64,000 nt of DNA from Naegleria gruberi (Eukaryota): the NCBI GenBank assembly GCA_000004985.1, contig GG738852.1. One strand, written 5' to 3'. Made by a program: the position numbers and the translations under genes. This document shows, piece after piece, positions 8,171 to 36,249 of the stretch (position 1 is its first letter; each line of letters begins with the position of its first letter). The notes under the pieces are model-generated. The model made no database searches and had not been told where the DNA came from. It was given only the letters and a program-made list of their open reading frames with translations.

Positions 8171-9979
8171 ATGAAACGAATCAATAACAAGGTTATCTTT
8201 CTAATAGCTACTGTAATTGTAGCTTTGCTTGCATTAGGAGTTTCCGTCTCCTTGCAACAACAAGTATCTGCTCAAGCAGGTGCCCAAGCTAGTAGTAGTG
8301 GTGCTTCTGTTAATGCTGGAGGCCAAGCCAGTGCTGGAAATCAGAATAACACTCAAGGTGGTGGACAAGGGCAAGGACAAGGACAGCAACAAGGTGGCAC
8401 ACAAGGACAGAACAATACATCTACTCAAGAGTTGAACAAGTTTTTGAATCGTATTGATACTGATTTGAGAATGATTGGAAGCTTTATTGATAGATGTGCA
8501 GGTTTGCAGCAACAAGGCCCAGGTGGTCAACAAGGTGGTCAACCAGGTGGTCCTGGACAAGGACAATTTGGTCAACCAGGCGGACAAGGTGGAATGCCAC
8601 AACAACCTCAACCAATTCAAGACCAAGGACCTCCAACTCAACAACAACAACCTGAATCTATGTGGTATTCAATGTTGGGAATGATTGGCTTACAACAATC
8701 TCCTCAACCACAACTTTCTGCCCAACAACAATTCCCACAACCTTCTCCTCAACCACAGCAATCACCAGCTCAAGCTCAGCAATCACCACAACCTCAACAA
8801 TCACCGGTTCAAGCCCAACCATCTCCACAACCACAGCAATCACCAGCCCAACCTCAACAATCACCACAACCTCAACAATCACCAGTTCAAGCCCAACCTT
8901 CTCCACAACCTTCTACAGTTGGAGCTGGTGCTGGTAGTCAAGAAACTAGACAACAAATTGCTTGTGGAATTGTTACCAAGGCTGCCACTAACTTGTTGAA
9001 TAATACCATGAGTTTAGTTTCCACTGTTAGTAACAATACCCAAATCAGCTCATCACTCAAGCAAGCTGTTGCTCAATTGCTTATTAAGGCAAATTTATTG
9101 TCTTCCAATGCCAAGAATTCAAGTTGGACCAATTTCCTTACCTCATTTGATCAATATGCTGTTAGTTTCTCAGCCTTGCAACAATCTCTCTCCAGACGTC
9201 AACAACAAGGCGGCCAACAAGGAGGACAAGGACAACAAGGCGGCCAACAAGGTGGCCAACAACAAGGTGGTCAAGGACAGCAAGGTGGTCAATTCGGTCC
9301 TCCACAACAAGGTGGTCAACAAGGACAATTTGTGCCACCTCAACAACAAGGTGGTCAACAAGGTCAATTCGGTCAGGGACAACAACAAGGCGGTCAACAA
9401 GGCCAATTCCCTCCACAACAAGGTCAAGATCAACAACAATATTCCTATCCACAACAAGGTGGTCAACAAGGTCAACAATATCCACAACAGCCTTATCAAG
9501 GACAATATGGTCAAGGACAACAAGGAGGTCAACAACAATATCCACAACAGCCTTATCAAGGGCAACAACAATATGGTCAAGCAGGCCAATATGGTCAACA
9601 AGATCAATATGGTCAAGGTCAACAAGGTGGACAACAATATGGTCAACAGTATCCTTACCAAGGACAACAAGGAGGTCAACAACAATATGGCCAAGGTGGA
9701 CAACAATATGGTCAACAAGATCAATACGGTCAAGGACAAAGTCAATACGGTCAACAATATCCACAACAGCCTTATCAAGGTCAACAAGGACAAAGTCAAT
9801 ACGGTCAAGGACAACAAGGAGGTCAACAACAATATCAACCACAGTATCCAACACCTTTCTACCAAAATCCATACCAATACAGAAATCCATACTTTTACCA
9901 AAGCCCAAGTTATCAATACTATCAACCACCACAACAACAACAACAATATGAAGGCTATTATCCAGAATATTATTACTAA
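8171..9979 (+). CDS. Secreted Q/G/P/Y-rich low-complexity (prion-like) protein
   Basis: N-terminal signal/TM (VIFLIATVIVALLALGVSVS). Followed by degenerate repeats QQGGQQGQF, SPQPQQSPAQ and QYGQGQQGGQQQYPQQPYQGQ. Ends in a Y/P-rich tail. Confidence 0.55.
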   Translation: MKRINNKVIFLIATVIVALLALGVSVSLQQQVSAQAGAQASSSGASVNAGGQASAGNQNNTQGGGQGQGQGQQQGGTQGQNNTSTQELNKFLNRIDTDLRMIGSFIDRCAGLQQQGPGGQQGGQPGGPGQGQFGQPGGQGGMPQQPQPIQDQGPPTQQQQPESMWYSMLGMIGLQQSPQPQLSAQQQFPQPSPQPQQSPAQAQQSPQPQQSPVQAQPSPQPQQSPAQPQQSPQPQQSPVQAQPSPQPSTVGAGAGSQETRQQIACGIVTKAATNLLNNTMSLVSTVSNNTQISSSLKQAVAQLLIKANLLSSNAKNSSWTNFLTSFDQYAVSFSALQQSLSRRQQQGGQQGGQGQQGGQQGGQQQGGQGQQGGQFGPPQQGGQQGQFVPPQQQGGQQGQFGQGQQQGGQQGQFPPQQGQDQQQYSYPQQGGQQGQQYPQQPYQGQYGQGQQGGQQQYPQQPYQGQQQYGQAGQYGQQDQYGQGQQGGQQYGQQYPYQGQQGGQQQYGQGGQQYGQQDQYGQGQSQYGQQYPQQPYQGQQGQSQYGQGQQGGQQQYQPQYPTPFYQNPYQYRNPYFYQSPSYQYYQPPQQQQQYEGYYPEYYY

Positions 9980-27933: not shown

Positions 27934-28823
27934 TTAATTTGCCTTGTAGAGAATTTCATAATGACCTGGTCTGAAGAGGAGGTGAATAATTGGTTCTTCA
28001 CTTGAACCATCTTCAGGAATGGTATAACCAAATATTGATACATCAGATCTTGTTTGAGCATCCAAAACTTCAATTCTAACCTTAACTCCAAATGCTGCTG
28101 CGAGGGCAGTAATATGAATGTTGTCACTGTCCTTTCCCATAATTTCAATTTCTCTCGAACAGAAATCTTTTGCAGTAGCATATTGATCCAAAAAGAATGG
28201 TAAAAAGTCATCAGAGTTCAATTGAATATAACAAGAAAGCAAAAATCTGAAAAAGCAAATGAGAGCATCTGATTCCATCATGGTATCAGGTGTCTTGTCA
28301 CTGAAATAGTTCTCAATAAGAGTATTCACATCAGCAATAGATCCATCCCTTACTAGCTCAAATACTCTCTTGGTTGATTCATAGAAATCTTCAAGACAAT
28401 ACTCTGGATATTTCAAATCATTAATCAATGCATGATAATACTTGTCAATACGTGAAATTATACTTTTTGTCAATTCAGGATTTTTCTGATCAATCAAATA
28501 TTCCAGCAATTCAAACACAAATCCTCTCAAGAAACAATTGCCATCACCTCTAATTCCTCTAATCTTTTTATATTCCTTCATAAATGAAGATTTTTTAATC
28601 TTTTCCTGAACACTTTGATCATGCATGTTGTATGACAATGTTTCAACAGTTAAATTTGAAGCTTCCGGATCAACGATCGGATACTTTTTAATTTCACTCT
28701 CGATATTCTTTTGTTGATTTTCGAATTGTTCATAAGAATAACCAGCAGCTGCAGCAGAGGAACTACACCATTATTATTTTGAGAATTACCAGTGGCGGCA
28801 GCAGGTGGTAGATGTTGACTCAT
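27934..28823 (-). CDS. OTUB1: Otubain-type OTU deubiquitinase (OTUB1-like); 2 exons
   Basis: join(28823..28790,28748..27934). Catalytic motif IRGDGNCFLRGF. C-terminal LLFRPGHYEILY. The N-terminus aligns to OTUB1 (NIESEIKKYPIVDPEA...KEYKKIRGIRGDGNCF). The initiator exon MSQHLPPAAAT joins only after removing a 41-nt GTAATT..CTGCAG intron. Otherwise there is a +1 frame offset. Confidence 0.8.
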
Positions 28824-28925: not shown

Positions 28926-31900
28926 TTATTGGTTATGTGGTGTTTGTTTCTCCAAATGGTCAAGAATGGCTTTGGCTGATGGTCTTGATTGATAATCTTT
29001 GGCCAACATGGAAATTGTTAAATCAATCAAGTCTTGAGAGTATTTTCCAGCGTTTGTTAATTTTTCTTTTAGGAATTCTTTAACAGTTTCTGTTTCTTTC
29101 ATCATGTAGAGTTGACTGATTGAGGTATCTGTATCTTTACTCATAATTTGGTATATAGTCACACCTAAACTGTATATATCAGTTGTTGAATTGTATTTTC
29201 CACCGACTGACATTTCAGGAGACATGAAAAGAGGTGTACCACAGTAAGAAACATTTACAGATCCTTGATTTTGACGAGCTAAACCAAAGTCAGCAACAAT
29301 GATGTGGACATCATTTTCATCGATTGATTTGATAAAAATGTTATTTGGTTTGATATCTCTGTGAATTAATGACATGCTTGAGTGAATGTAATCCAAAGCT
29401 TGACATGATTGATCCAAAATCTTTCTAACTATTATTTCTGAACAGTATCCCTCACACTTGATAAGATTGGTTAAATCTCCCTTTTCATAATAATCCATAT
29501 CAATACACAATAATTGATCATTGTCAACAAAGAATTCATTGACTTTGAGAATGTAAGGGTGATTGATATTCATCAATTGAGCCCCTTCTTTCATAATTGA
29601 ATTCAAATCTTCAAAGGATGTGAATTTCATAACTTTGAGCGCCTTTTCATGGTTGTTTCTACTGTCTGTTGCTCTAAAAACTGATCCAAATCCGCCTTGA
29701 CCAATCTTTGACATGTTTTTATATCTTTGTGAAATTGGATCAGACGAGGTGGATGTATTTGAACCTGCAGAATTGTTGTGGAGTGGAGCAAATGACATAC
29801 TGTTGTTTGATGGGAAATCCAAGGAAGCTGATGTTTGCAATTCAATATAAAAACTATTGTTAGGGAAGTTGGCAGTGTTTTGAGAACTTTGTAACTGTTC
29901 TTTTTGGTGTAATCTTTGTGATTCTTGATCTAATTGTTCCTTCTTTCTCTTTGCCTTGATTCTCAATAAGACAACTATTATTACAATCACAACAATAATA
30001 ATTATCAATAGGAGAATGCCTAGAGAGAGGCCAACACCTAGTCCTATACCAAGAGATTGATCGTCTGTTGTGATTCTCTTTGATACTGTTGGTACTGTCG
30101 GTGTTGATGAAGATGTAGCTTGGCTATCAATTACACCAAAAGAAGTAAGGTGAGTCGTATAACAGTTAATATTGAAATATAAAGTATTAGACTCATTCTT
30201 GGTTAAAACAAAGTTAGTAGTTAATCCATCATAGGCCCACTTATTATTGGTTGTATCATAATATGTACAGGTAATGTTACTAGTAGAATTGGCCTTATAC
30301 ACCAAGTTATTGAAATTGATTACAATCTTATTGTTAAGCTTGTTAACTTTAACTAAAGCACCACTCAATTGAACAGAAATATCAATCAGAGGACTAATCA
30401 GGTCAGAAGATACGTATGAAGAGTAGCTAATATCATAAGAAAGAGTATTGTCGAAACCAAGAGCAGATAATTGACTTGAAAAATCAGATGGGAATACTAC
30501 ATTGGTTCCAATCATGGAAACAGCCTTTCCATCCAATTGGTTTAGCAACAATCCTGTTTGCATGTTTGTTTCTCCTTGAGGCAAATCTGTGTGAATAATA
30601 GAGTTGCCAGTAGTATTAGAACTTTGAGAAATTAACAACTTATTCAAGTTGGCCATATTATTGACGAATGGAGCAGGGGAAGAAACGGTGCTCATAATAT
30701 TGAACAAATCTACAATCTCATTGTAATGTTCATTGTCAATAATGAAAGGAAGAACTGAAGGGGAGTAAATATTTGAGGATGCACTAATACTCGAAAAGAT
30801 GTAAGTCATCCAAGATGAAAGACTTGAACTTTGAGTGGAAACAGTGCTTGGTGATAGCGTATTCAATAATACATAGATTGTTCTCAAGGGTGGAACGACC
30901 AAGGCAATAATCTTCTCATCGACGTTATAACCTGTGTTCTTCATTTGATACAGAACTGAACTCATATCAACCAATAATACTACTATTTGATTGGAGGTTG
31001 TTGAATCAAGTAAAGAAGGCAATAGGGCTATTGGAGTGTCTTGAATAAATAAGGACAACAAGGATGAGATATAATTTGCTGTATAAATAGAAATTTGCTT
31101 TTGAGATTTCAACAGTTGATATTGAGTATTGAGATAGTTATATCTGGAAGTGAATGAATTATCAGCAGCAAGACCAGAGGGCAATTTTACAACAATGTTG
31201 TACTTAGCAATTGCTAAAGAACCACTTGTTGTTACAAGCTTGACAATTACATTTAAATTTCCACCATTAACAAATGGAAGTGGTGTTACAGTTACTGATT
31301 TTGGAGTGTTTGAAAGAATTCCAACTCTTGAAGTACCATTATTAACTTGCATAATGAAACCAGATATCTTCTCCTTATTATTCACACACGAAATGACAAA
31401 TGAAGTTTCATAGGCAACATTTGAATTCAAAGGATCATATAATTGGCAACTGAATCTTGGCATCAAATCAACAGTTGTGATCACATTTGCAGATGATTGA
31501 CCTTGCCCATTTGTTACCTTCAATTGAATCTTGTAGTTCTCTCCCTGAATCAATCTAGAACTATCTATCAACAAGTTACTTTGAATGTTGGTTGAAAATG
31601 CAGTATTCCTTGCCGATTGTTGTATAACAGCTGAAACACTATTCTCACCATTGAAAAGTTTGATTGTTCCTTGAATCAATTCCCATTTCAATTCAGAAAT
31701 AGTTGATGCAGAGGTTATAGTGGCCTGAATTAACAAACTCTTTCCGTAAGGATAAACGTCTGGAATGGTATTTAGTTTAATGGCGGGAACATTCTGAGGT
31801 ACATTTACAACACTGATTGTTCCGCTCAGAGTCTGACTAGCTATACCAGAAACCGAAGCAGTTAAACTGATAGTGTAATCTCCTACAGGTAAATTACCAG

Positions 31901-32981
31901 CACCAATTGTCAATGTGTTTGTTGTTCCACTGCAAATGCTTGCAGAAATTTGCTGCTTGGTCTGCTTATCAAAACATGACCAGGAGTATTGAAGTGGAGT
32001 AGTAGAAGGTAAATTATTTAAATATGGATCAAAAACAAAAGTTCCAATTACAATACTGCTTGAAATTGAATAAGTTCTCTCAATATTTGTAAGAAGCAAA
32101 CCGAGTTGATCAAATACAGAGTAAGAAACAGGTACTTTTAAGGAGTATTGAGATGCTTCCACAATGCTAGTGGTGAGGGATCCAGTATATTGGGAGGCAA
32201 AATTATTGGTAAATCTGAATATCTGCTTGCCATAGAGTTGTGTTGACGTGTATGCTAAACTTCCTTCAAATACATTTTGTAAAGTTGTGCCTTGTGTTGG
32301 TACATTAAATTCAATGACACATGTTTGACCAGCACATGTATAACCTCCTGATTGTAAACCAGATACTAGCTCAAAGTTTTGATGAGTTGATACTGTATCA
32401 ATGGAATATTTCTGAGAGGTAGTATAGGTGTTATATGAATTAGAACTGGTTAATGAGACGTTGAGTACCTTTGAATTTCCTTCCATGGAGGAAATAGAAT
32501 TTAGGTAATTGGTTGGAATGATGACAACAGGATTGTTTGTGTTATTTAGAAATAGAGACTGAATTTGTGAAGGACAATTATTGCAATTCCAAACTTGTGA
32601 AATGGACTTGAAACCATAGAATAGATTACTAGTACTTGATCTTACTATGAGTGGCTGATTGAGTGTTAGTGGTGACAGGACACTATTAAGGGAACTTCCA
32701 GATGCTGTCGATAGAATAGAAATTGCACCCATTGCATTCACTTGTAACACCACATTACTTGGTATTAGATTCAATGTTGTTCCGTGCGTTATAGAATGAT
32801 TGAAACCAAGATAAATTCTCAAGCCTTGAGAAGTGAAATCACAACTAACCATGGAAGAATCTCCAAAGGATAAAATATCATTTTGTGAGAAGAAATCTTG
32901 ACAATATTTGGTACTAGATGGTATGTATGCCAGTATTGGAGGATGGTATGGCCAGAATTGTGAGATCACAAGATGTTTCAA
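28926..32981 (-). CDS. Giant receptor-type protein: large ectodomain with GPS/GAIN autoproteolysis motif, single TM, C-terminal Ser/Thr kinase (5' end unresolved)
   Basis: Continuous 1351-codon ORF. GPS motif CTYYDTTNNKWAYDG...NINCYTTHLTSFGVI at ~30290..30135. TM LGIGLGVGLSLGILLLIIIIVVIVIIVVLL at ~30044..29958. Complete kinase domain (GQGGFGSVF, HRDIKPNNIF, DFG, SPE) at ~29714..28929. No signal peptide or ATG lies near the 5' end, and the first Met is ~residue 44. The true 5' exons may be the NHL/EGF gene upstream. Confidence 0.7.
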   Translation of the reverse strand: MKHLVISQFWPYHPPILAYIPSSTKYCQDFFSQNDILSFGDSSMVSCDFTSQGLRIYLGFNHSITHGTTLNLIPSNVVLQVNAMGAISILSTASGSSLNSVLSPLTLNQPLIVRSSTSNLFYGFKSISQVWNCNNCPSQIQSLFLNNTNNPVVIIPTNYLNSISSMEGNSKVLNVSLTSSNSYNTYTTSQKYSIDTVSTHQNFELVSGLQSGGYTCAGQTCVIEFNVPTQGTTLQNVFEGSLAYTSTQLYGKQIFRFTNNFASQYTGSLTTSIVEASQYSLKVPVSYSVFDQLGLLLTNIERTYSISSSIVIGTFVFDPYLNNLPSTTPLQYSWSCFDKQTKQQISASICSGTTNTLTIGAGNLPVGDYTISLTASVSGIASQTLSGTISVVNVPQNVPAIKLNTIPDVYPYGKSLLIQATITSASTISELKWELIQGTIKLFNGENSVSAVIQQSARNTAFSTNIQSNLLIDSSRLIQGENYKIQLKVTNGQGQSSANVITTVDLMPRFSCQLYDPLNSNVAYETSFVISCVNNKEKISGFIMQVNNGTSRVGILSNTPKSVTVTPLPFVNGGNLNVIVKLVTTSGSLAIAKYNIVVKLPSGLAADNSFTSRYNYLNTQYQLLKSQKQISIYTANYISSLLSLFIQDTPIALLPSLLDSTTSNQIVVLLVDMSSVLYQMKNTGYNVDEKIIALVVPPLRTIYVLLNTLSPSTVSTQSSSLSSWMTYIFSSISASSNIYSPSVLPFIIDNEHYNEIVDLFNIMSTVSSPAPFVNNMANLNKLLISQSSNTTGNSIIHTDLPQGETNMQTGLLLNQLDGKAVSMIGTNVVFPSDFSSQLSALGFDNTLSYDISYSSYVSSDLISPLIDISVQLSGALVKVNKLNNKIVINFNNLVYKANSTSNITCTYYDTTNNKWAYDGLTTNFVLTKNESNTLYFNINCYTTHLTSFGVIDSQATSSSTPTVPTVSKRITTDDQSLGIGLGVGLSLGILLLIIIIVVIVIIVVLLRIKAKRKKEQLDQESQRLHQKEQLQSSQNTANFPNNSFYIELQTSASLDFPSNNSMSFAPLHNNSAGSNTSTSSDPISQRYKNMSKIGQGGFGSVFRATDSRNNHEKALKVMKFTSFEDLNSIMKEGAQLMNINHPYILKVNEFFVDNDQLLCIDMDYYEKGDLTNLIKCEGYCSEIIVRKILDQSCQALDYIHSSMSLIHRDIKPNNIFIKSIDENDVHIIVADFGLARQNQGSVNVSYCGTPLFMSPEMSVGGKYNSTTDIYSLGVTIYQIMSKDTDTSISQLYMMKETETVKEFLKEKLTNAGKYSQDLIDLTISMLAKDYQSRPSAKAILDHLEKQTPHNQ

Positions 32982-33225
32982 TTATTCCAGTAATGAATCT
33001 GCTGTTTGTTCAGGAAGGGGAAAGTGTTCGAATTATAATTTATGTTCCTGCAATACAGGATATACTGGTCCAAATTGCGATATTGCTATTTGTTATGGAA
33101 AATTGCAAAATGACACCACCGTTTGTTCCTCTTTTGGTGATTGTATTTCCTATAACAACTGCCAATGCAAACTTGGATATAGAGGAAACCAATGTCAATT
33201 TCTGCAAATGGCAGATATCAGGTGA
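32934..33225 (+). other. Inverted EGF-repeat coding segment (plus strand) at junction of NHL/EGF gene and GPS-kinase ORF
   Basis: The plus-strand frame encodes GGWYGQNCEITRC..CSGRGKCSNYNLCSCNTGYTGPNCDIAICYGKLQNDTTVCSSFGDCISYNNCQCKLGYRGNQCQF. These are 2.5 tenascin-type EGF repeats, paralogous to those encoded on the minus strand at 33230–33800. It is bounded by ccag| (32933) and CAG|GTGAGA (33225/6), with an in-frame TGA at 33223–33225. Confidence 0.4.
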
Positions 33226-36200
33226 GATACATAACCCATTTGAGCTACAAATATTACTGTTGTTTGAGGCTACATCATTACAGATAGTATATTGGCAATT
33301 ACTTCCAACATATCCTAAATTACATGAACATAAATTTGGACCTACACAAGTTCCATTACCACAACCGAGCCCGAATAATGCATTTCCCACTGTGTTTTTA
33401 ACACCTGCACACAAATATGATTGACACTCTGAGTCAAAATATCCTGCATTACAAGTACAATTATTAGAACTTAAACAGGCTCCTTTTCCAGAGCAAACGT
33501 TGGAAGATGCTGATGATTTTCCAAAGCATGCTGTAATTTGACATTCAGTTCCAGTATACCCATTCGAGCATGAGCATGTGTTGGGGAGAGAGCAGTTTCC
33601 CCTACCTGAACACACATTTGAATCATTAGAATATTTACCATAGCAGATGGCAAGTTGACAATTAAGCCCAGAAAATCCATTGAAACAGGTACAATTATTT
33701 GGAGAGTTACACAATCCATGGCCACTGCAAGTGGTAAGCTCATTAGAAACTCCAAAACAGGAGGCAATACATTGAGTGAAATTCCCATTAAGCCCATAAC
33801 CACTCGGACAGTAAGGAGCCAATCTTCTTATTCTGTTGTTCCCTTTATCGCTGATTAGTATTTCTCCACTATTGGCAATAAAAGTTGTTTGATATAAATA
33901 GTTGAATAAGGCACTTGTAGAGTTGCCTATGTCACCATATAATCCATTAATTGAATCATCTCCTCCAACAGCATTAATATTTCCATCAGGACCAATAACC
34001 CGAATCGAATGTTCATTAGTATAGTAAATAAAATCTCCATTCTTAGAAACAGCTACACTAGTCGTGTGCATACAGGCACCAATAGCTGGAACTCCAATAG
34101 CAAATTCATCACAGGAGCTAGTTGACCCACCAACAGTACTAATAATTCCAGTGTCTGCTGAAACTTTTCTTATTCTAAAATTTTCAGATATAAAAATATC
34201 ACCCAAACTACTAATTGCCAATGAGGAAGTGTATTGTAATTGAGCAGATGTGGCCAGAACATTGTTTCCATAAGTTCCACTTACTCCAGTTCCTGCAACC
34301 GGGTACACAGTTCCGCTCAGTGTTATTTTGTAAAGTCTTGGATTGGCAGATGTAAGAACAAGAATTTCACCAGTTATTGGTGATAGAGCAATACATTGAA
34401 CATCCAATGGAGCATTGATTGCTAGTGTTCCATCAGGGACAATGTTTTTGTCTCCATTTCCAGCTGTTGTTAAATGTGAGTTCACCAAAGCAAACAATTC
34501 CACTTACCAATTGTAGTTATTATTCCATTCGTTGAAACCTTGCGAACTCGGGAATTCATAGAATCTGCAATATAGACCTCACCTGAGCCACTGACTGCCA
34601 CACAACGAGGAGAGTTTAATTGGGCATTAATTGCCAAACCCCCATCTCCACTAAATCCACTTGTGCCATTGCCCGCAAATGTTACTATAGTATTATTAGG
34701 ATATAAAATTCGTATTCTGTCATTGAAGGTGTCTGATAACATTATTAAGCTTGATAATTTTTACAATTTAAAACTTACCAGCAATATATATTTCCCCAGT
34801 ATTAGCAGCTACTGCATGTTGTGGTTGTGCTAATTGAGCATTTATTCCCAATCCACGATCTCCAGAAAATGAGCCACCATGACCTGCAATAGTTGTAATA
34901 ATTCCTGAGCTATAAGAAACAAGTCTCACTCTGTTATTGTATTGATCTATTTAAGAATACTGTGTTAATTAAAGAGTAACAAAAGAATACGTACCTACAA
35001 TATATAAATCTCCAGAGGTATAATTGGCTGTGAGGGAAAATGGTTTAATTTGTACATTCTTTGCTAGCCCACCATTTCCAAGATCACCAATTACTGGAGA
35101 AACAGGACATATTCCATTTCCTGTTATAGTTGAAATAATTCCATTCGAATCTATTTTCCTTACAACACATTCACCATCAGAAGAAAAGAAAATATCACCC
35201 TTAGAAGTGGTGGTAATTGAAAATGGATATGATATCAATGCATTGATGGCCAACCCTCCATCTCCTGAGTTCATTATTAATTTTCTAATATTAAAAACGA
35301 AACAAACCTGAATAGCCAGCAGTGCCTGATCCTGCTATTGTAATAATTGTAGAATTGGATTTAAAAATTCTTCTAATTCTATGAGTTTCATAGTCAGCAA
35401 TAATAAAGTCACCATTTGATGCTATAGCAAAGGAGCGAAAACGACTAAGATAACTTGAAGTTGCAATAACGTTATCTGAATTGTATCCACAGAATCCATA
35501 AACTCCAGCTTTACAAAATTAATTCATTGTCCTTAATAACAATACTTACCAATGGTTGAAATAATTCCATTAGCGCCTATTTTTCTAAGTAAACAATTAA
35601 AAGAATCAGCAAAGTAAACAGTTCCATCATTTGCAACATTAATACCAAAAGGAAATCTCAAGTTGGAATTAATTGCCAATTGACCATCTTTTTGTTTTAA
35701 AATCAAAAAGAAAACTCAATACTTACCAGCACTGTACCCTTCGGTTCCATAAACCCCAGCAACAGTAACAATAGTTCCATTAGTGAATATCTTTCTAATT
35801 CTATGTTTTTCAGCTTCTGTGAGATACAAATCCCCATTAGCACTGAATGATATTCCCATCGGATTCATTAACATGGCATTAATAGCCAATGCTCCATCGC
35901 CATAATTTGAACTGGCAAAACCAGTTCCTGCATACGTTGTAACAATTCCATTCGCAATCTTTCGAATGAATGCACCATATGAAAGAGGATTGAAAAAAGA
36001 TCCGAATAAAGTATTTTCAGCAATGTACACATGTTGAGTAATTGGATGTATAGCAACTGCACTTGGTGAGTAAAGAGAGACACGTAAAGGATCATATCCC
36101 TCTCCCTTTACATTCAATCCACCAGCAATGGTAGAAACATTATAGCTTGGATAGAATGGTGTTGTTACTCCTGCAACAGCATGTGGTTGGTTACAAACAA

Positions 36201-36249
36201 TTGAGAGTGCAACCACCACAGCAAAAAGAATCGATACCAAAGTGTGCAT
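33040..36249 (-). CDS. Secreted NHL-repeat (beta-propeller) protein with tenascin-type EGF repeat array; 7 exons
   Basis: join(36249..35727,35687..35550,35508..35308,35264..34995,34946..34779,34732..34508,34463..33040). Signal peptide MHTLVSILFAVVVALSIVC. About 12 NHL repeats (GDGG.A..A.L..P.G....NG..Y.AD..N.RIRK). Then ~7 EGF repeats (CSG.G.C.....C.C..GY.G..C). All six introns are phase 1 and 39/41/43/48/46/44 nt long, with GTAAGT/GTTTGT/GTACGT donors. EGF periodicity is lost at 33226 (..CSSNGLCIS|PDICHLQKLTL..), and the last 60 aa are non-EGF down to the TAA at 33040. Confidence 0.75.

What the first reader, a model, noticed from the sequence alone, without database searches (positions are those of the whole stretch)
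28926..36249. NHL-propeller/EGF gene and GPS-kinase ORF may be one giant teneurin-like receptor kinase
The NHL/EGF gene and the GPS–TM–kinase ORF lie head-to-tail on the minus strand. Only 58 nt separate the NHL/EGF stop (33040) from the start of the kinase ORF (32981). The upstream gene supplies what the downstream ORF lacks: an ATG, a signal peptide and a secreted N-terminus. The upstream gene's EGF array ends abruptly, mid-repeat, at 33226. Together they would form signal peptide – ~12 NHL repeats – ~7+ EGF repeats – large GAIN/GPS ectodomain – TM – kinase. This is reminiscent of teneurins and polycystins but with a kinase output.
Basis: inference. Interest (0 to 1): 0.7.

Follow-up and report, generated by a model that had tools for sequence, protein, structure and literature searches.

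The report
Receptor-kinase gene split by small inversion
The two neighbouring reading frames are the two halves of one very large Naegleria gruberi surface-receptor kinase gene, which in this scaffold is broken by a 267-bp flipped segment, while an unbroken copy of the same stretch sits on a separate small contig of the same assembly.

Summary
The window is Naegleria gruberi NEG-M (four ORFs match EFC proteins exactly). The "58-nt gap" lies inside about 267 bp (32941-33207) whose plus strand encodes the missing EGF repeats 5b-7, so this block is inverted. About 53 nt are lost at the two junctions.

A 1203-bp contig of the same assembly (EFC35246.1) reads straight through in the un-inverted order at 99% identity. 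Five homologues (four N. gruberi, one N. fowleri) are single chains with the same collinear order.

The restored protein has 2371 aa:
- signal peptide
- about 12 NHL blades
- 7 EGF repeats
- REJ-like beta-sandwich module
- GAIN/GPS domain (HL|T)
- one transmembrane helix
- Ser/Thr kinase that looks active

It is not a teneurin, polycystin or adhesion GPCR. It belongs to an uncharacterised family found so far only in Naegleria. The public annotation lists only the 5' half (966 aa, with a nonsense tail).

I cannot tell here whether the inversion is a real heterozygous null allele (my preference) or an assembly or clone artefact.

The parts
36169..36249 (-). Start codon (36249) and predicted signal peptide MHTLVSILFAVVVALSIVCNQPHAVAG
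   Evidence: (gene model) and inspection of the hydrophobic N-terminus. The homologues start the same way.
33211..36249 (-). 5' half of the gene, exons 1-7: 36249-35727, 35687-35550, 35508-35308, 35264-34995, 34946-34779, 34732-34508, 34463-33211. Introns: 35726-35688, 35549-35509, 35307-35265, 34994-34947, 34778-34733, 34507-34464.
   Evidence: The model is in frame across six GT..AG introns of 39-48 nt. It equals the public model P0041 except at intron 5.
33840..36160 (-). About 12 NHL blades, probably two six-bladed beta-propellers
   Evidence: Pfam NHL and TEN_NHL hits, internal repeats by tblastn, motif count.
33211..33759 (-). EGF repeats 1-4 and the first part of EGF5, ending ...CSSNGLCISPDIC
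   Evidence: Pfam EGF_2 1.7e-15, 39-aa periodicity, collinear with P0008 aa 2-131.
33208..33210 (.). Junction J1 of the inversion. The CAT codon here replaces Gln132 of the intact copy, and about 10 nt encoding (Q)CFN are missing.
   Evidence: tblastn of P0008; sequence.
32941..33207 (+). Inverted block. The plus strand encodes GWYGQNC...GYRGNQCQFLQ, i.e. the end of EGF5 plus EGF6 and EGF7.
   Evidence: Pfam EGF hits on the plus-strand ORF. It is 98% identical to P0008 aa 136-225 on the opposite strand from its flanks. It is collinear in all homologues.
32941..32942 (.). Junction J2, with 2-nt overlap (GG/CC) between the block and the downstream flank. About 41-43 nt encoding IDLDGPNAILSASY are missing.
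   Evidence: The intact copy has 321 nt here against 268 nt in the window, a loss of 53 nt.
33040..33210 (-). Nonsense tail (HLQKL...SCIAGT, 56 aa) and premature stop produced by reading the inverted block antisense
   Evidence: The same tail is in the public model P0041.
31188..32942 (-). Membrane-distal ectodomain: Cys-containing linker followed by REJ-like tandem beta-sandwich (Ig/FN3/PKD-like) domains
30120..31187 (-). GAIN-like domain: helical subdomain followed by a beta-sandwich. The GPS motif is at 30275-30129 and the putative cleavage site H944-L945|T946 at 30152-30144.
29964..30053 (-). Single transmembrane helix LGIGLGVGLSLGILLLIIIIVVIVIIVVLL, followed by RIKAKRKK (type I topology)
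   Evidence: Weak Pfam TM-region hits.
28926..29723 (-). Ser/Thr protein kinase domain with all catalytic motifs (GQGGFGSV, ALK-V, HRDIKPNN, DFG, SPE) and stop codon 28928-28926
   Evidence: Pfam Pkinase 6.9e-52. Nearest solved kinases are STK24/MST3, CDPK1 and NEK1, about 1e-28. Coordinates.

Best explanation
The interval 36249-28926 (minus strand) is one gene of Naegleria gruberi. It encodes a type-I receptor Ser/Thr kinase of about 2371 aa:
- signal peptide
- about 12 NHL blades
- 7 tenascin/teneurin-type EGF repeats
- REJ-like beta-sandwich module
- GAIN domain with an HL|T GPS site about 30 residues before a single TM helix
- a cytoplasmic kinase that looks catalytically competent

In this scaffold the gene is broken. 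A 267-bp block (32941-33207) encoding the end of EGF5 plus EGF6-7 is inverted, and about 53 nt are deleted at the two junctions. These deletions remove a conserved EGF cysteine and the conserved linker IDLDGPNAILSAS. Transcription from the native promoter would therefore yield only a secreted NHL-EGF fragment with a 56-aa nonsense tail. The REJ-GAIN-TM-kinase part has no start codon or signal peptide of its own.

An intact version exists on a 1203-bp contig of the same assembly. I favour (about 0.6) that the scaffold carries a recent heterozygous null allele and the small contig is the other haplotype.

Inferred, not shown: in the intact protein the propellers and EGF array bind a ligand or surface. 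The GAIN domain self-cleaves at HL|T while keeping the fragments associated. Force-driven or ligand-driven changes at this juxtamembrane module regulate oligomerisation and activation of the kinase.
For: Organism and scaffold:
- Four window ORFs match N. gruberi NEG-M proteins exactly, on a 938,756-bp scaffold.

Inversion:
- The plus-strand ORF 32908-33225 gives EGF Pfam hits.
- P0008 (EFC35246.1, 1203-bp contig) maps as aa 2-131 to minus 33600-33211, aa 136-224 to plus 32941-33207, and aa 239-377 to minus 32942-32526. Residues 132-135 and 225-238 are absent.
- A simple flip cannot restore both frames (my arithmetic), which fits the 53-nt loss.

One gene:
- An exhaustive HMMER search found four full-length relatives aligned over the whole ectodomain, each with 780-1560 residues N-terminal to the match.
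- Pfam shows NHL + EGF + Pkinase in each and in XP_002673750.1.
- MAFFT shows that the inverted block and both deleted pieces are collinear and conserved in all of them.

Domains.

Recent event:
- The 3' half is still a 1351-codon open frame in DNA of 35% GC.

Haplotype reading:
- P0008 differs from the window at two further residues in mid-contig (I/V, S/R).
- N. gruberi is reported to be heterozygous (PMC9928731).
Against: - No reads were available, so the inverted arrangement rests on one consensus sequence.
- The intact arrangement rests on one tiny contig whose DNA I could not fetch.
- GAIN/GPS and REJ are below Pfam thresholds in this family, and Foldseek against PDB found nothing significant.
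- The AF2 models are of moderate quality (pLDDT 69 and 65).
- There is no expression, cleavage or kinase-activity data. The signalling mechanism is inference only.
Confidence: 0.88

Rival explanations
1. Assembly or cloning artefact. The real NEG-M genome has only the intact gene. The inverted, deleted version in the main scaffold comes from a rearranged clone or a mis-join, and the 1203-bp contig holds the correct reads that could not be merged.
For: - The intact order exists in the same assembly.
- The 3' half shows no decay at all: 1351 codons remain open.
- No other public protein supports the inverted form except the model built on this scaffold.
Against: - A consensus at about 8x Sanger coverage would normally follow the majority of reads (inference).
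- The junctions look like double-strand-break or template-switch repair, with 1-2 nt of overlap and small deletions, rather than a repeat-induced mis-join. The EGF repeats are only about 47-50% identical to each other.
- The contig differs from the scaffold at two further residues.
Confidence: 0.27
2. Two independent genes, as in the public annotation: a secreted 966-982-aa NHL/EGF protein ending at 33040, and a separate (unannotated) membrane kinase gene.
For: - The public model P0041 ends at 33040.
- Intergenic distances in this genome are short: about 100 nt to the next gene's ATG.
Against: - The last 56 aa of the model are the antisense reading of EGF-coding DNA.
- The kinase ORF has no ATG before codon 44, no signal peptide, and starts inside that antisense DNA.
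- All homologues are single chains.
- The intact contig bridges the two halves.
Confidence: 0.03
3. The 1203-bp contig is a fragment of a second, nearly identical paralogous copy elsewhere in the genome, not an allele. The copy in this window would then be a pseudogene beside an intact duplicate.
For: - There is 99% rather than 100% identity.
- The family has several paralogues in N. gruberi.
Against: - The known paralogues are only 25-35% identical.
- No second near-identical protein was found for any other part of the gene.
- The contig is centred exactly on the inversion, as expected for unplaceable allelic reads.
Confidence: 0.07
4. A programmed, reversible DNA inversion switch that turns the receptor on and off.
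For: Both orientations of the block exist in one clonal assembly.
Against: - 53 nt of conserved coding sequence are lost at the junctions, so flipping back cannot restore the frame (arithmetic).
- There are no flanking inverted repeats at the breakpoints. The only inverted repeat nearby is EGF-versus-EGF at 72% identity.
- No recombinase gene was noticed nearby.
Confidence: 0.01

Closest known systems
Naegleria NHL-EGF-REJ/GPS-TM-kinase proteins (N. fowleri XP_044565022.1; N. gruberi XP_002674574.1, XP_002673894.1, XP_002676784.1, XP_002673750.1), all named only 'predicted/uncharacterized protein'
   Same: - Same domain order from end to end.
- 30-34% identity across the whole ectodomain.
- Conserved EGF-to-ectodomain linker, the GPS site H-L-[ST], the TM helix and the kinase.
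   Different: - The copy in this window is disrupted.
- The number of NHL blades and EGF repeats varies (2142-2807 aa).
- One paralogue (XP_002676784.1) has HGN in place of HRD and looks like a pseudokinase.
- XP_002673750.1 lacks the HL[ST] site.
Polycystin-1 / sea-urchin REJ (PKD1-like) family
   Same: A large ectodomain in which a REJ module is followed by a GAIN/GPS site just outside the membrane (family features from PMC3321182 and PMC1934368).
   Different: - One TM helix and a kinase, instead of 11 TM helices, a PLAT domain and a channel-like C-terminus.
- The second GPS disulfide is lost.
Adhesion GPCRs (GAIN domain, tethered-agonist receptors)
   Same: - A GAIN-like fold: helical subdomain plus beta-sandwich ending in a GPS with HL|T, directly before the first TM helix.
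- Adhesion-type repeats lie N-terminal to it.
   Different: - There is no 7TM domain, so the output is a Ser/Thr kinase.
- A tethered-agonist mechanism has no obvious receiver here.
Teneurins
   Same: Pfam's teneurin-derived NHL and EGF models hit (TEN_NHL, EGF_TEN, EGF_Teneurin).
   Different: - Type I rather than type II topology.
- NHL lies before EGF rather than after it.
- No YD/Rhs shell, FN-plug, TTR or toxin-like domain was detected.
Single-pass receptor Ser/Thr kinases (plant RLKs, TGF-beta receptors)
   Same: Ectodomain, one TM helix and a cytoplasmic Ser/Thr kinase.
   Different: - The kinase is closest to STE20, CDPK and NEK-type kinases, not to the TKL group.
- The ectodomain is unrelated and about ten times larger, with a putative autoproteolytic module.

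Membership tests
Naegleria NHL-EGF-REJ/GPS-TM-kinase family (unnamed) | Collinear homology over the whole length, with NHL, EGF, ectodomain, TM and kinase in one chain | tested here: met
   Met for the restored sequence. The scaffold copy itself is interrupted.
GAIN/GPS domain (Arac et al. 2012, PMC3321182) | GPS motif with conserved Cys/Trp and an H-L|T/S cleavage site | tested here: met
   The alignment with bona fide GPS proteins P0014 and P0019 shows C, W, C and HL[TS]F conserved. The second disulfide pair has been lost on both sides together. Pfam GPS hits are sub-threshold: 15.9 bits for this protein, 4 of 6 family members, best E=0.0037.
GAIN/GPS domain (Arac et al. 2012, PMC3321182) | Fold of about 320 aa: alpha-helical subdomain A followed by beta-sandwich subdomain B | tested here: inconclusive
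GAIN/GPS domain (Arac et al. 2012, PMC3321182) | Immediately precedes the first TM helix | tested here: met
   T946 lies 30 residues before the TM helix at 977-1006.
GAIN/GPS domain (Arac et al. 2012, PMC3321182) | Autoproteolysis with the fragments remaining associated | not testable with these tools
   This needs biochemistry.
REJ module (Pfam PF02010) | Significant match to the REJ profile | tested here: inconclusive
   24.3 bits against a cutoff of 25 on a 300-aa segment, but no hit on a 586-aa segment. Transitive support comes from the phmmer hits P0014 and P0019, which have REJ at 1.7e-47 and 9e-19. The model is all-beta, like Ig/PKD domains.
Polycystin-1 (PKD1-like) family | 11-TM region with a PLAT domain after the GPS | tested here: not met
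   There is a single TM helix followed by a kinase, and no PLAT or PKD_channel hit.
Adhesion GPCR | 7TM (secretin-like) domain after the GAIN domain | tested here: not met
   One TM helix and no 7tm_2 hit.
Teneurin | Type II topology; EGF, then NHL, then a YD-repeat shell and a toxin-like C-terminus | tested here: not met
   There is an N-terminal signal peptide, NHL lies before EGF, and there are no YD/Rhs/Tox-GHH hits.
Eukaryotic protein kinase (Ser/Thr) | Pkinase fold with the Gly-loop, VAIK Lys, HRD, DFG and APE motifs | tested here: met
   Pfam 176.9 bits. The motifs are GQGGFGSV, ALKV, HRDIKPNN, DFG and SPE. The nearest PDB kinases are Ser/Thr kinases. Activity was not tested.

The most novel reading that the evidence does not exclude
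Naegleria has a third class of GAIN-domain membrane proteins besides adhesion GPCRs and PKD1-like proteins. These are single-pass receptor Ser/Thr kinases in which a polycystin-like REJ-GAIN/GPS module self-cleaves at HL|T and couples adhesion or mechanical input to a kinase. If so, the REJ-GAIN sensor arose early in eukaryote evolution (Naegleria is a distant relative of animals) and is modular with respect to its membrane output. In addition, the NEG-M reference strain would be heterozygous for a fresh null allele of one such receptor, created by a 267-bp inversion.
Probability: 0.4. Interest if true: 0.65.

Novelty: new variant of a known kind. Interest (0 to 1): 0.45.

Why it matters
For the genome:
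- It corrects the reference annotation. One 966-aa 'predicted protein' with a nonsense tail, plus 4 kb of unannotated ORF, are in fact a single 2371-aa receptor kinase.
- It flags a structural difference between the main scaffold and an unplaced contig.

For biology:
- The family joins a REJ + GAIN/GPS ectodomain to a kinase. That ectodomain is otherwise known from polycystins and adhesion GPCRs.
- I found no paper describing this combination. Arac et al. 2012 list only two families that use GAIN.
- If GPS cleavage occurs, these proteins give a simple single-TM system for asking what GAIN autoproteolysis does when no 7TM receiver for a tethered agonist is present. They also push the origin of the module back to early in eukaryote evolution, since Naegleria is only distantly related to animals.

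Tried and rejected
- **Simple flip of the block.** Frame arithmetic shows that no pair of breakpoints restores both frames. The 53-nt loss explains this.
- **Cryptic splicing over the inverted block.** 63 GT..AG pairs are in frame, but none has a donor resembling the gene's own (GT[ACT]NG[TA]). Rejected.
- **Recent inverted duplication.** The block is only 47-50% identical at protein level to the other EGF repeats, so it is an original part of the array.
- **Paralogues elsewhere in the window.** None found.
- **First homologue search with the whole kinase ORF.** It returned only generic kinases, because the word index was swamped.
- **Search with the 2371-aa restored protein.** Timed out.
- **The look-up of encoding contigs.** It has no record for P0008, P0041 or three window ORFs, so I could not obtain the DNA of the 1203-bp contig or any independent assembly.
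- **Profile search of the GAIN region against PDB sequences.** Nothing found.
- **Foldseek against PDB.** Nothing significant.
- **The afdb50 structure library.** Unavailable.
- **Literature searches for GAIN/GPS kinases in Naegleria.** Nothing found.
- **The 2010 genome paper and the 2011 review.** Neither is held in the library.
- **Dictyostelid origin,** my first guess from base composition. Wrong; the organism is Naegleria gruberi.


Full report
**1. What is in the sequence**

The window is eukaryotic, about 35% GC, with very short introns. The minus strand carries two features.

- An NHL/EGF gene starts at ATG 36249. I could splice it in frame across six canonical GT..AG introns of 39-48 nt, giving 982 aa with a stop at 33042-33040.
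- After 58 nt comes a 1351-codon open frame, 32981-28926. It has no ATG before codon 44 and no signal peptide.

Pfam confirms the domain types: NHL and TEN_NHL, EGF_2 (1.7e-15) and Pkinase (6.9e-52). The EGF array actually breaks at 33208-33211, after ...CSSNGLCISPDIC. The upstream ORF holds 4 complete EGF repeats plus part of a fifth.

**2. The missed feature: an inversion**

The ORF list showed a plus-strand ORF at 32908-33225 whose translation is plainly EGF-like. Pfam agrees, with EGF_2 at 2.5e-8 and EGF_Teneurin at 5.7e-9.

The '58-nt gap', the 56-aa tail of the upstream gene (HLQKL...IAGT) and the first 13 codons of the kinase ORF (from its TTG start at 32981 down to 32943) are all antisense readings of EGF-coding DNA. 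The block is only 47-50% identical at protein level to the other EGF repeats and has no copy elsewhere in the window. It is therefore an original part of the array lying in the wrong orientation, not a recent inverted duplication.

**3. Organism and the intact copy**

An exhaustive HMMER search with the ectodomain (window 30027-32927, minus strand) gave 16 hits.

- Four are full-length relatives of 2142-2807 aa, aligned over the entire query. Each has 780-1560 residues N-terminal to the match.
- One is a 384-aa fragment, P0008, at 99% identity.

The cluster look-up names these as Naegleria fowleri and N. gruberi proteins. P0008 is EFC35246.1/XP_002667990.1, 'predicted protein, partial [N. gruberi]', on a 1203-bp contig. 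Four of ten window ORFs match N. gruberi NEG-M proteins exactly, on a 938,756-bp scaffold. The window is therefore the NEG-M reference scaffold, and P0008 comes from a separate small contig of the same assembly.

tblastn places P0008 on the window as follows:

| P0008 residues | Window position |
|---|---|
| aa 2-131 | minus 33600-33211 |
| aa 136-224 | plus 32941-33207 |
| aa 239-377 | minus 32942-32526 |
| aa 132-135 (QCFN) | no counterpart |
| aa 225-238 (IDLDGPNAILSASY) | no counterpart |

Between Cys131 and Pro239 the intact copy has 321 nt and the window has 268 nt, so 53 nt are lost. This explains why no simple flip can restore both reading frames (my arithmetic).

The junctions show 1-2 nt of overlap and no flanking inverted repeat. 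That pattern is typical of break repair or template switching (inference).

**4. One gene**

Pfam finds NHL + EGF + Pkinase in a single chain in N. fowleri XP_044565022.1 and in N. gruberi XP_002674574.1, XP_002673894.1, XP_002676784.1 and XP_002673750.1.

In a MAFFT alignment the inverted block and both deleted pieces are collinear with all five homologues. The deleted pieces are a conserved EGF cysteine and the conserved linker CQ[YF]h.V.LD....I.S. The intact order is therefore ancestral, and the scaffold order is derived. Using P0008 only for the 18 missing residues, the restored protein is 2371 aa.

**5. Public annotation**

The database holds a 966-aa N. gruberi model, P0041, on this scaffold.

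- It equals my 5' model, except that it splices out 16 residues of an NHL blade at intron 5.
- It ends in the same nonsense tail.

No protein matching the kinase ORF at high identity exists, apart from the P0008 fragment, which overlaps only its first ~135 residues. The 3' 4 kb of the gene is therefore unannotated.

**6. Domain anatomy of the 3' half**

*Kinase.* All catalytic motifs are present. The nearest solved structures are STK24/MST3, CDPK1 and NEK1 at about 1e-28. This is a generic Ser/Thr kinase, not a TKL or Tyr kinase.

*GPS/GAIN.*
- Pfam GPS covers the whole 45-residue motif but scores below threshold (15.9 bits). It is the only recurrent Pfam hit across six family members (4 of 6, best E=0.0037).
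- Alignment with two bona fide REJ + GPS proteins that the ectodomain search itself recovered shows the first Cys, the Trp, the third Cys and H-L-[TS]-x-F conserved. These are P0014 and P0019, with GPS at 1.5e-9 and 7.6e-7. The second disulfide has lost both cysteines together.
- UniProt names an N. lovaniensis relative a 'GAIN-B domain-containing protein'.
- An AF2 model of the 356 residues before the TM helix (pLDDT 69) has a helical half followed by a beta-sandwich.
- The site HL|T lies 30 residues before the TM helix, which fits the rule that GAIN domains immediately precede the first TM helix (PMC3321182).

*REJ.*
- Pfam gives 24.3 bits against a cutoff of 25 on one segment, but no hit on a longer segment.
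- Homology to P0014 and P0019 (REJ at 1.7e-47 and 9e-19) supports the assignment.
- An all-beta AF2 model that resembles Ig, FN3 and PKD domains also supports it.

**7. Real allele or artefact?**

This cannot be settled without reads.

For a real, recent, heterozygous inversion:
- The main consensus carries it.
- The junctions look like repair products, not repeat-driven mis-joins.
- The small contig is centred on the inversion, as expected for allelic reads that could not be placed.
- The contig differs from the scaffold at two further mid-contig residues.
- N. gruberi is reported to be heterozygous (PMC9928731).

For an artefact:
- The 3' half shows no decay at all.
- No independent data support the inverted form.

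I put this at about 0.6 real allele, 0.27 artefact and 0.07 near-identical paralogue. A reversible switch is excluded by the junction deletions. Rescue by cryptic splicing is not supported.

**8. Mechanism**

Shown: the domain order, type-I topology, intact catalytic motifs, and the conserved HL[ST] site in four of five homologues.

Inferred: the propellers and EGF array bind a ligand or surface. The GAIN domain self-cleaves. The juxtamembrane REJ-GAIN module transmits binding or force to the kinase, probably through changes in oligomerisation.

**9. Comparison and novelty**

The protein is a member of an uncharacterised family found so far only in Naegleria. It resembles polycystin-1/REJ proteins and adhesion GPCRs in its REJ-GAIN/GPS ectodomain, but it fails their defining membrane parts (11 TM helices with PLAT, or 7TM). 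It shares only domain types with teneurins.

I found no paper describing a GAIN-domain receptor kinase in Naegleria. Arac et al. 2012 describe GAIN use by two membrane protein families. I rate the family architecture a new variant of a known kind. The locus itself is a broken or mis-assembled copy, which lowers the interest of this particular finding.

Noticed in passing
window 34733-34826 (intron 5 region): The public N. gruberi model for the 5' half (P0041, 966 aa) splices out 16 residues (DTFNDRIRILYPNNTI) that form a good NHL blade motif. The shorter 46-nt intron (34778-34733) keeps them and looks like the correct call.
   Followed up: partly
homologues P0005 (XP_002674574.1) and P0006 (XP_002673894.1): Both models end abruptly inside the kinase domain, right after GTPLFM/GTPIFM. 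Pfam Pkinase matches only profile positions 1-164 of 263, and an odd tail follows. The 3' ends probably read through a missed intron.
   Followed up: no
homologue P0023/P0007 (XP_002676784.1): This paralogue has HGNIKTSN instead of HRD, and a degenerate Gly-loop and lysine region. The family therefore probably includes a pseudokinase receptor. XP_002673750.1 (P0024) lacks the HL[ST] GPS site.
   Followed up: no
window 8724-9790: There are tandem, imperfect 18-117-nt repeats inside a 602-aa plus-strand ORF (8171-9979). They encode Q/P- and Q/G/Y-rich low-complexity (prion-like) sequence. GC rises locally to 42%, and spurious long ORFs appear on both strands.
   Followed up: partly
window 27934-28823 minus strand: An OTU-type cysteine-protease-like gene, with one short intron after ATG 28823, starts only about 100 nt downstream of the kinase stop codon. 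This illustrates how compact the genome is.
   Followed up: no
ENA-derived proteins P0007, P0010, P0016, P0026, P0029: Short contigs in ENA assemblies encode proteins at least 90% identical to N. gruberi NEG-M proteins. A second N. gruberi-like data set therefore exists in public assemblies, but none of its proteins covers this locus.
   Followed up: no
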